A program made the translations under genes and the position numbers. Shown here in pieces: positions 31,254 through 31,848 of a stretch of 64,000 nt of DNA. Below the pieces are notes generated by a model. It was not told the origin of the DNA, made no database searches, and saw only the letters and a list, made by a program, of their open reading frames with translations. The stretch comes from the human T2T-CHM13v2.0 reference genome, Homo sapiens, in assembly GCF_009914755.1 (NCBI RefSeq), contig NC_060940.1; one strand, written 5' to 3'. Positions within the stretch are counted from its first letter, which is position 1. Every line of letters starts with the position of its first letter.

Positions 31254-31848
31254 GTATCCTTTACCAAGGATTAAATTCCATTCTCTGAAGTGCTTTGTTG
31301 ATCTAGGTAATGGTTAAAAGCTTACTCTTGCCGGGCGTGGTGGCTCACGCCTGTAATCCCAGCACTTTGGGAGGCTGAGGTGGGTGGATTTCCTGAGCTC
31401 AGGAGTTTGAGACCAGCCTGGGCAACATGGTGAAACCCCATCTCTACTAAAATACAAAAAATTAGCCAGGTGTGGTGGTCTGTGCCTGTAGTCCCAGCTA
31501 CTCGGGAGGCTGAGGTGGGAGAATCGCTTGAACCCGGGAGGCAGAGGTTGCAGTGAGCTGAAATCACGCCACTGCACTCCAGCCTGGGCGACAGAGCAAG
31601 ACTGCGTCTCAAAAAAAAAAAAAAGAGTACGCTTTGTGTTTTTTTTTTGAGACAGAGTCTTGCTCTGTCGCCCAGGCTGGAGTGCAGTGGCGCGATCTCG
31701 GATTAGCCAGGATGGTCTCGATCTCCTGACCTTGTGATCCAACCGCCTCGGCCTCCCAAAGTGCTGGGATTACAGGCTTGAGCCACCGCACCCGGCCTAA
31801 AAGCATACTCTTGAAATGAGAAATTTTCCTTTGACCACATGTATTCAG
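31254..31848 (+). other. CNEP1R1: U12-type (minor spliceosome) GT-AG intron of CNEP1R1
   Basis: The 5' splice site GTATCCTTT matches the U12 consensus. Branch sequence TTTTCCTTTGAC (31824-31835) has its A 14 nt before the 3' end, and there is no polypyrimidine tract. Confidence 0.9.

What the first reader, a model, noticed from the sequence alone, without database searches (positions are those of the whole stretch)
31254..31848. CNEP1R1 has a U12-type intron of which about 75-80% is a tail-to-tail inverted Alu pair
Seen: a 595-nt intron with a GTATCCTTT donor and a TTTTCCTTTGAC branch site. It contains a sense Alu (31330-31624) and an antisense Alu (31639-31797) only about 14 nt apart, ending about 26 nt before the branch sequence. 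The second Alu has lost roughly 130 nt internally (gatctcgg joined to attagccagg). Established: closely spaced inverted Alus are depleted in the genome, form dsRNA edited by ADAR, and minor introns are often rate-limiting. Inference: the hairpin would bring the U11 and U12 sites close together and could tune splicing or retention of the intron, and so the level of the CTDNEP1/lipin regulator, in a primate-specific way.
Basis: partly seen in the sequence, partly recalled or inferred. Interest (0 to 1): 0.7.

Follow-up and report, generated by a model that had tools for sequence, protein, structure and literature searches.

The report
Alu hairpin inside CNEP1R1 minor intron
The fourth intron of human CNEP1R1 is an already catalogued minor-spliceosome intron that is about four-fifths filled by two opposite-facing Alu repeats predicted to fold into a long RNA hairpin, but nothing yet shows that the hairpin regulates the gene.

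Summary
Intron 31254-31848 is 595 nt, with an AAT|GTATCCTTT donor and a TCCTTTGAC branch site 14 nt from the 3' end. It has no pyrimidine tract. It holds a sense Alu (31330-31624), a 14-nt spacer and an internally deleted antisense Alu (31639-31797), together 79% of the intron.

The U12 status is not new. The Minor Intron Database papers list this exact 595-nt intron as "minor". They give identical splice-signal 12-mers in mouse. They score the intron as mis-spliced in ZRSR2-mutant myelodysplasia (1 of 9 human datasets).

The predicted hairpin is strong: MFE -335 kcal/mol, z -20.9, and 145 Alu-Alu base pairs. However, in-silico controls with either Alu flipped or removed give the same donor-to-branch distance and the same signal accessibility. 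The "brings U11 and U12 sites together" idea therefore has no specific support.

The two Alus carry different subfamily words, so they are separate insertions. The pair is flanked by a 14/15 direct repeat, and the spacer holds an inverted copy of that repeat.

The locus is one of 41 such tight tail-to-tail pairs in the genome, and not the strongest. My verdict is a real, mildly unusual instance of known things, with function untested.

The parts
31144..31253 (+). CNEP1R1 coding exon 4, ends ...CAAT
   Evidence: Hub annotation. The joined CDS translates to 125 aa without a stop.
31254..31848 (+). Intron 4, 595 nt, U12-type GT-AG
   Evidence: Listed as a 595-nt minor intron, GRCh38 chr16:50033507-50034101, in PMC6717393 Table S1 and PMC11347168 Table S6.
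31254..31262 (+). U12-type donor GTATCCTTT
   Evidence: The published 5'ss score is 98.9 for AATGTATCCTTT.
31315..31329 (+). Left copy of the flanking direct repeat TAAAAGCTTACTCTT
   Evidence: It matches 14 of 15 to 31798-31812.
31330..31624 (+). Alu1, sense, near full length, A14 tail at 31611-31624
   Evidence: Rfam Metazoa_SRP hits. It is 71-86% identical to 73 other Alu pieces in the window.
31625..31638 (.). Spacer of 14 nt. Positions 31625-31635 are an inverted copy of the flanking repeat.
   Evidence: The inverted match is 10 of 11 (0 of 2000 shuffles reach it). The direct match is 7 of 11 (170 of 2000). One search repeats this at 1 of 1000.
31639..31797 (-). Alu2, antisense, T10 at 31639-31648, internal deletion of about 131 nt at 31699/31700
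   Evidence: It carries the word GAGATCGAGACCATCC exactly, the only one of 45 window Alus to do so.
31798..31812 (+). Right copy of the flanking direct repeat TAAAAGCATACTCTT
31827..31835 (+). Branch-site sequence TCCTTTGAC, presumed branch A at 31834
   Evidence: The published BPS 12-mer TTTCCTTTGACC scores 74.8 and is identical in mouse.
31847..31848 (+). AG at the 3' splice site
31849..31903 (+). CNEP1R1 coding exon 5 (55 nt)
   Evidence: Hub annotation.

Best explanation
This is a conserved U12-type (minor-spliceosome) GT-AG intron of CNEP1R1. Its human copy was enlarged from about 112 nt to 595 nt by two separate Alu insertions of opposite orientation into the same short target site.

Both splice signals lie outside the repeats: the donor is 76 nt upstream and the branch site 26 nt downstream. 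In the pre-mRNA the two Alus are predicted to pair into an imperfect duplex of about 145 bp that loops out four-fifths of the intron. The middle of Alu1 would form a side branch.

I judge the hairpin to be a tolerated passenger. The intron is still recognised through its U12 signals and still depends on ZRSR2. Any compaction it gives is no more than ordinary folding of either Alu would give.

Likely molecular side effects, all inferred: it is a substrate for ADAR editing. It pairs the U-tract of the antisense Alu with the A-tail of the sense Alu. If the intron is retained, the transcript carries long dsRNA plus a stop codon 64 nt into the intron.
For: Shown by sequence. The U12 donor, branch site and spacing are present, there is no pyrimidine tract, and the other four introns are U2-type.

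Shown in print. The same 595-nt intron is classed as minor. The mouse ortholog (542 nt) has identical 5'ss and BPS 12-mers. The human intron is responsive in ZRSR2-mutant MDS, and the mouse intron in 2 of 6 datasets.

Alu identity and pairing. The fold has z -20.9. There are 145 Alu1-Alu2 pairs, with longest uninterrupted helices of 37 and 35 bp.

Separate insertions. Alu2 carries one 16-nt word exactly (0 mismatches, against 3 for Alu1). Alu1 carries the alternative word with 1 mismatch.

Same target site. A 14/15 direct repeat flanks the whole pair, and a third, inverted copy sits in the spacer.

Passenger reading. Flipping or deleting either Alu in silico leaves the donor-branch graph distance at 58-62. 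P(unpaired) stays at 0.35-0.41 for the donor and 0.44-0.60 for the branch site.

Known principle. Same-intron IRAlu pairing is described as favouring ordinary linear splicing (review PMC11263572, passages).
Against: The intron is scored responsive in only 1 of 9 human minor-spliceosome datasets: no for both CENATAC time points, both MOPD1 samples, Roifman syndrome, and the U12, U4atac and U6atac morpholinos. Dependence on the minor spliceosome is therefore shown in one setting only.

The branch-site score is moderate (74.8).

The in-silico controls use equilibrium secondary structure and a crude graph distance. They ignore co-transcriptional folding, proteins and 3D structure, so they cannot exclude a real orientation effect.

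I have no editing, structure-probing, retention or primate-comparison data. The ancestral length of 112 nt is inferred by removing the Alus and one repeat copy. The mouse intron is 542 nt, and I could not read it.
Confidence: 0.6

Rival explanations
1. The Alu hairpin draws the U11 site (donor) and the U12 site (branch) together. It thereby tunes the rate of minor splicing or the retention of this intron, giving primate-specific control of the CNEP1R1 (CTDNEP1/lipin regulator) level.
For: The hairpin is predicted to be very stable and to leave only about 76 + 51 nt outside it. Recognition of the donor and branch site together by the U11/U12 di-snRNP is established knowledge (recalled, no call). 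The intron does respond to ZRSR2 mutation.
Against: The predicted donor-branch distance and signal accessibility are the same with either Alu flipped, with Alu2 removed or with both removed. The mouse intron is 542 nt without Alus and keeps the same signals, so length is not tightly constrained. No paper in the library links CNEP1R1 with minor introns, U12, Alu (one incidental hit) or RNA editing in its main text.
Confidence: 0.15
2. Masking role, as in the RABL5 case. The antisense Alu2 sits 51 nt upstream of the 55-nt exon 5. It brings a U10 tract followed by GAGACAG that could attract U2AF/hnRNP C or act as a cryptic U2-type acceptor. Pairing with Alu1's A-tail hides it and protects correct U12 splicing and exon 5 inclusion.
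For: In the MFE structure the T10 tract (31639-31653) pairs with 31606-31620. The review PMC11263572 (passages) describes RABL5. There an antisense Alu just upstream of an exon causes skipping, and a sense Alu in the same intron counteracts it through dsRNA.
Against: RefSeq lists no transcript using exons inside this intron. Its only other exon is 23396-23446 (hub table). I ran no splice-site scoring or expression data. The order of insertion is unknown.
Confidence: 0.12
3. Liability rather than function. When minor splicing fails, the retained intron delivers a dsRNA of about 145 bp into a polyadenylated transcript. That transcript is then held in the nucleus, edited, degraded by NMD (stop 64 nt into the intron) or sensed as dsRNA.
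For: The stop codon position comes and the duplex size. The intron is mis-spliced in ZRSR2-mutant MDS. Retained intronic IRAlus activate dsRNA sensors after major-spliceosome or PRMT inhibition (review passages).
Against: There are no data for this transcript. A single intron among hundreds of retained ones would contribute little. Only two reviews in the library hold 'minor intron', 'dsRNA' and 'Alu' together.
Confidence: 0.08
4. The apex of the palindrome is a microRNA-like hairpin processed by Drosha/Dicer.
For: Rfam E-value search gives matches at 31568-31691 to MIR5062 (54.4 bits), mir-1303 (53.3), MIR1862 (48) and mir-4524 (42.3).
Against: All are far below their gathering scores of 140, 107, 84 and 68. 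They are matched on both strands, as expected for any tail-to-tail Alu palindrome.
Confidence: 0.03

Closest known systems
U12-type (minor) GT-AG introns as catalogued in U12DB / the Minor Intron Database
   Same: The donor /GTATCCTTT, the branch site close to the 3' end and the lack of a pyrimidine tract all match. This very intron is listed as 'minor', is conserved in mouse and is ZRSR2-sensitive.
   Different: Nothing in the splice signals differs. What is particular is that 79% of the intron is an inverted Alu pair. None of the catalogue passages I saw mention this.
Same-intron inverted-repeat Alus (IRAlus), e.g. the RABL5 intron pair described by Lev-Maor et al. and summarised in PMC11263572
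   Same: A sense and an antisense Alu lie in one intron and are predicted to form dsRNA just upstream of an exon.
   Different: The host intron here is U12-type. The pair is tail-to-tail with only 14 nt between the tails. One arm has an internal deletion. No splicing effect has been measured.
Closely spaced inverted Alu pairs as unstable DNA palindromes (Lobachev et al. 2000; Stenger et al. 2001; recalled, not read here)
   Same: The spacer is below 20 nt and the arms are about 89% alike. The locus belongs to a small class of 41 in T2T-CHM13 under my strict pattern.
   Different: It is not an extreme member. Of the 41, 26 have 240 or more aligned arm columns, against 90 contiguous here.
Alu-palindrome-derived miRNA hairpins (Rfam mir-1303 and similar)
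   Same: The apex of a tail-to-tail Alu hairpin gives sub-threshold matches.
   Different: The scores are about half the gathering thresholds. There is no evidence of processing.

Membership tests
U12-type intron | Donor /RTATCCTT at the exon end | tested here: met
   aat|GTATCCTTT at 31254. Published 5'ss score 98.9.
U12-type intron | Branch site resembling TCCTTRAC about 10-20 nt from the 3' splice site | tested here: met
   TCCTTTGAC at 31827-35, with the A 14 nt from the intron end. It is imperfect: published BPS score 74.8. The consensus and the distance range are recalled.
U12-type intron | No pyrimidine tract between branch site and 3' splice site | tested here: met
   CACATGTATTCAG follows the branch site. 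The other four introns end in T-rich runs.
U12-type intron | Splicing depends on minor-spliceosome components | not testable with these tools
   In print only: 'yes' for MDS (ZRSR2) and 'no' for the 8 other human datasets. Mouse is 'yes' in 2 of 6 (PMC11347168 Table S6).
U12-type intron | Conserved position and signals in orthologs | not testable with these tools
   In print: mouse Cnep1r1 has the same 5'ss and BPS 12-mers and a 542-nt intron. I could not read the mouse sequence.
Alu (7SL-derived SINE) | Similarity to 7SL/SRP RNA in two monomers, an A-rich tail and flanking target-site repeats | tested here: met
   Metazoa_SRP hits for both monomers of Alu1 and for Alu2. The internal 135-nt direct repeat is 74% identical. 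Tails are A14 and T10. The flanking repeat matches 14/15.
IRAlu dsRNA element | Two oppositely oriented Alus in one transcript able to pair | tested here: met
   Arms of 68 and 60 nt are each 90% complementary. There are 145 inter-Alu pairs in the MFE structure.
IRAlu dsRNA element | A-to-I editing clusters or a dsRNA signal in vivo | not testable with these tools
   No editing database was at hand. No paper text holds both CNEP1R1 and 'RNA editing'.
miRNA precursor families (mir-1303, MIR5062, MIR1862, mir-4524) | Score at or above the Rfam gathering threshold | tested here: not met
   Scores of 53.3, 54.4, 48 and 42.3 bits against thresholds of 107, 140, 84 and 68.

The most novel reading that the evidence does not exclude
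In primates a conserved minor intron of the lipin-pathway regulator CNEP1R1 acquired an Alu hairpin that makes its removal sensitive to dsRNA-handling factors (ADAR1, DHX9, hnRNP C) as well as to the minor spliceosome. CNEP1R1 output, and the release of a dsRNA-bearing retained-intron transcript when minor splicing fails (as in ZRSR2-mutant myelodysplasia), would then be controlled in a lineage-specific way.
Probability: 0.1. Interest if true: 0.6.

Novelty: new member of a known kind. Interest (0 to 1): 0.3.

Why it matters
CNEP1R1 (NEP1-R1) is the regulatory subunit of the CTDNEP1 phosphatase, which activates lipin. A primate-specific brake or switch on its only minor intron could therefore touch nuclear-envelope and lipid metabolism. 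It would also be a clean natural test of how long dsRNA inside an intron interacts with U11/U12 recognition.

As it stands, the U12 intron is already catalogued and same-intron IRAlus are a described class. My only test of the proposed mechanism gave no orientation-specific effect. The locus is therefore a convenient minigene candidate rather than a discovery.

The small side result bears on how Alu palindromes form and rearrange. The spacer of tight tail-to-tail Alu pairs can carry an inverted copy of the target-site repeat, here and at one other locus.

Tried and rejected

2. Full-text searches were negative or irrelevant.
- CNEP1R1 with 'minor intron': 0 papers.
- CNEP1R1 with 'U12': 0 papers.
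- CNEP1R1 with 'Alu': 1 paper, incidental.
- CNEP1R1 with 'intron retention': 1 paper, about a SNP near CNEP1R1 that affects HEATR3 splicing.
- CNEP1R1 with 'RNA editing': 0 papers.
- 'inverted Alu' with 'U12-type': 2 unrelated reviews.
- 'minor intron' with 'Alu elements': 11 papers. I opened two for passages, and neither treats Alus in minor introns.
- 'minor intron' with 'dsRNA' and 'Alu': 2 reviews.
- Supplements are not covered by these searches, and bioRxiv supplements are closed.

3. The supplements of PMC7507305 hold no CNEP1R1.

4. Table S5 of PMC6717393 has only the mouse intron, with a mis-splicing index of 0.038 and 0.084 in two tissue columns. It gives no human retention value.

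5. The multiple alignment of 45 window Alus mis-placed the deleted Alu2, giving an apparent 24.8% divergence. I discard that number and give no age for Alu2. Piecewise alignment gives at most 86% identity to other window Alus.

6. I rejected origin by inverted duplication of one Alu, because the arms carry different 16-nt subfamily words. The labels 'Y-like' and 'S-like' for those words are recalled.

7. The idea that the deletion in Alu2 is a relic needed to stabilise the palindrome is not supported. Of the 41 tight pairs, 26 keep near-full arms.

8. In the intron-only fold an 8-bp helix pairs 31311-31318 with the branch site 31830-31837. It disappears when the flanking exons are included, so I do not rely on it.

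9. Searches were script errors, which I fixed. One search gave no answer and was repeated.

Full report
**What is in the sequence**

Joining the annotated CNEP1R1 coding exons gives an uninterrupted 125-residue frame. Intron 4 runs from 31254 to 31848 and is 595 nt long. It begins aat|GTATCCTTTACC. It ends TTTTCCTTTGACCACATGTATTCAG|tat.

The likely branch adenosine is at 31834, 14 nt from the last intron base. No pyrimidine tract follows it. The other four introns of the gene start GTAGG, GTAAG, GTAGA and GTAAG and end in T-rich runs. Intron 4 is therefore the only one with minor-spliceosome signals. The 9-mer GTATCCTTT alone is not diagnostic, because it occurs 4 times in the window against 0.61 expected. 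Its position at the exon boundary, together with the branch site, is what counts.

**The repeats**

- A near full-length sense Alu lies at 31330-31624 and ends in A14.
- A 14-nt spacer follows.
- An antisense Alu lies at 31639-31797 and begins with T10.
- Rfam's signal-recognition-particle RNA model matches both monomers of the first Alu (74.1 and 57.3 bits) and the second Alu on the minus strand (31.9 bits).
- The first Alu against the reverse complement of the second gives 141 identities in 158 aligned columns (89%).
- Alu1 31422-31559 has almost no counterpart, so about 131 nt are missing from Alu2 at 31699/31700.
- The Alus make up 76% of the intron, or 79% with the spacer.

**The U12 status is known**

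The supplement of Olthof et al. 2019 (PMC6717393) covers this intron. I saw find-in-supplement passages, part 1 of Table S2, part 2 of Table S5 and main-text passages.

- It lists CNEP1R1 as a minor-intron gene in both mouse and human.
- The 12-mers are identical in the two species: AATGTATCCTTT and TTTCCTTTGACC.
- The human scores are 98.9 for the donor and 74.8 for the branch site.
- The human intron is given as chr16:50033507-50034101, 595 nt. The mouse intron is 542 nt.

Olthof et al. 2024 (PMC11347168; passages of text and supplement) class the same human intron as "minor". In Table S6 they mark it responsive in ZRSR2-mutant myelodysplastic syndrome. They mark it not responsive in the other eight human datasets: CENATAC at 24 and 48 h, MOPD1 amniotic fluid and fibroblasts, Roifman syndrome, and the U12, U4atac and U6atac morpholinos. 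The mouse intron is responsive in 2 of 6 datasets.

A row for CNEP1R1 labelled U12DBv2 also appears in the supplement of PMC10853781. I did not see that table's header.

No paper in the searchable library names CNEP1R1 together with "minor intron", "U12" or "RNA editing" in its main text. The single paper holding both CNEP1R1 and "Alu" is unrelated.

**The hairpin**

The intron folds to -335.4 kcal/mol, against -193.1 +/- 6.8 for 100 dinucleotide shuffles (z -20.9). In the minimum-energy structure 145 base pairs join Alu1 to Alu2. That is 145 of the 159 nt of Alu2. The longest uninterrupted helices are 37 and 35 bp, with 8 G-U pairs. The middle of Alu1 forms a side branch. This is prediction only. 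I had no editing or probing data.

**Test of the proposed mechanism**

I folded exon 4 + intron + exon 5 as wild type and in four in-silico variants. For each I sampled 100 structures and measured the shortest path, through backbone or base pairs, from the donor to the branch adenosine.

| Variant | Median donor-to-branch path |
|---|---|
| Wild type | 60 |
| Alu2 flipped | 62 |
| Alu1 flipped | 59 |
| Alu2 removed | 61 |
| Both Alus removed | 58 |

Mean unpaired probability was 0.35-0.41 for the donor and 0.44-0.60 for the branch site across all five. Within this crude model the inverted orientation adds nothing. Each Alu folds on itself and compacts the intron just as well.

An 8-bp helix between 31311-31318 and the branch site appears in the intron-only fold. 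It vanishes once the exons are included. The model ignores co-transcriptional folding and proteins, so it cannot exclude the inference either.

**How the pair arose (inference)**

Alu2 carries the 16-nt word GAGATCGAGACCATCC exactly. It is the only one of 45 window Alus to do so. Alu1 is 3 mismatches from that word and 1 mismatch from the alternative word that most window Alus carry. The arms are therefore separate insertions, not an inverted duplication. The subfamily names for these words are recalled.

The pair as a whole is flanked by TAAAAGCTTACTCTT and TAAAAGCATACTCTT, a 14 of 15 match. The spacer holds a third copy in inverted orientation. That inverted match is 10 of 11, reached by 0 of 2000 shuffles. 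The direct match is 7 of 11, reached by 170 of 2000 shuffles.

The simplest account has three steps. The sense Alu inserted with this target-site duplication. The antisense Alu then inserted using the same 14 nt as its target. Later the tiny spacer was flipped by exchange between the inverted arms.

**Genome context**

In the window's own assembly I counted loci matching GTCTC-A8, a gap, then T8-GAGAC.

| Gap (nt) | Loci |
|---|---|
| 0-30 | 41 (this locus included) |
| 31-60 | 126 |
| 61-90 | 222 |

The rise fits the known scarcity of very close inverted Alus. However, tails longer than 8 nt consume part of the gap, so the bins are only a loose measure.

I fetched the other 40 loci.

- 26 of 41 have 240 or more aligned columns between the arms. 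Median identity is 0.83.
- This locus has only 90 contiguous columns, because of the deletion. It is not an extreme palindrome of its class.
- The deletion is not a general requirement for survival.

Among 26 loci where both Alu heads could be placed, 10 have an informative spacer.

- Three carry a direct copy of a flank: L016, L026 and L038.
- Two carry an inverted copy: this locus and L015.
- Five carry nothing clear.

Within the 64-kb window itself, the table shows three other close inverted pairs, all head-to-head. Their gaps are about 39, 55 and 106 nt.

**Consequences if the intron is retained**

The frame runs into a stop 64 nt into the intron. That is upstream of the last exon junction, so such transcripts should be NMD targets and would carry the duplex.

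The review PMC11263572 (passages) records three relevant points. Same-intron IRAlu pairing favours linear splicing. In RABL5 a sense Alu counteracts exon skipping caused by an antisense Alu just upstream of an exon. Retained intronic IRAlus can trigger dsRNA sensors. These give the masking and liability rivals, but none is tested for CNEP1R1.

**Verdict**

The intron class is already known. The Alu hairpin is a real and strongly predicted feature, and I did not find it described in print. It belongs to a known kind. The proposed regulatory role is open, and my one test does not favour it.

Noticed in passing
window 31315-31329, 31625-31635, 31798-31812: There are three copies of one 13-15-nt target sequence. 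Direct copies flank the whole Alu pair (14/15 match). An inverted copy sits in the 14-nt spacer (10/11, reached by 0 of 2000 shuffles). This suggests two insertions into one target, followed by a flip of the spacer between the inverted arms.
   Followed up: partly
L015 (G000:C4:74177440-74178395), spacer of the tail-to-tail Alu pair: A second locus has a 19-nt spacer that is an inverted copy of the flanking target (11/11, reached by 0 of 1000 shuffles). L016, L026 and L038 carry direct copies. By eye, L007 and L023 show three direct copies, flank-centre-flank.
   Followed up: partly
own genome: Tail-to-tail Alu ends (GTCTC-A8 ... T8-GAGAC) number 41, 126 and 222 loci for gaps of 0-30, 31-60 and 61-90 nt. 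L033 (C17:79244482-79244524) has 281 aligned arm columns at 92.5% identity and no spacer core. It is a much stronger palindrome than the CNEP1R1 one.
   Followed up: partly
window 47899-48173(-)/48213-48493(+); 51151-51420(-)/51476-51748(+); 17410-17691(-)/17798-18068(+): Three other close inverted Alu pairs lie in the same 64 kb. All are head-to-head, with gaps of about 39, 55 and 106 nt (read from the table). The window holds 74 Alu pieces.
   Followed up: no
window 40370-40378(+) and 40409-40417(-); also 23496-23504(-): There are further exact GTATCCTTT matches. Two of them face each other 30 nt apart in unannotated sequence between CNEP1R1 and HEATR3-AS1. The third lies on the minus strand inside CNEP1R1 intron 1. 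The total of 4 matches compares with 0.61 expected. This is probably chance.
   Followed up: partly
window 31568-31691: The apex of the Alu palindrome gives sub-threshold Rfam matches to several miRNA precursor families, on both strands. These are mir-1303, MIR5062, MIR1862 and mir-4524. All score about half their gathering scores.
   Followed up: yes
PMC6717393 Table S5 (mouse chr8:88129805-88130346): The mouse Cnep1r1 minor intron is 542 nt and Alu-free by species. It shows low mis-splicing indices of 0.038 and 0.084 in two tissue columns. I did not see the column headers. The mouse sequence could not be read here.
   Followed up: no
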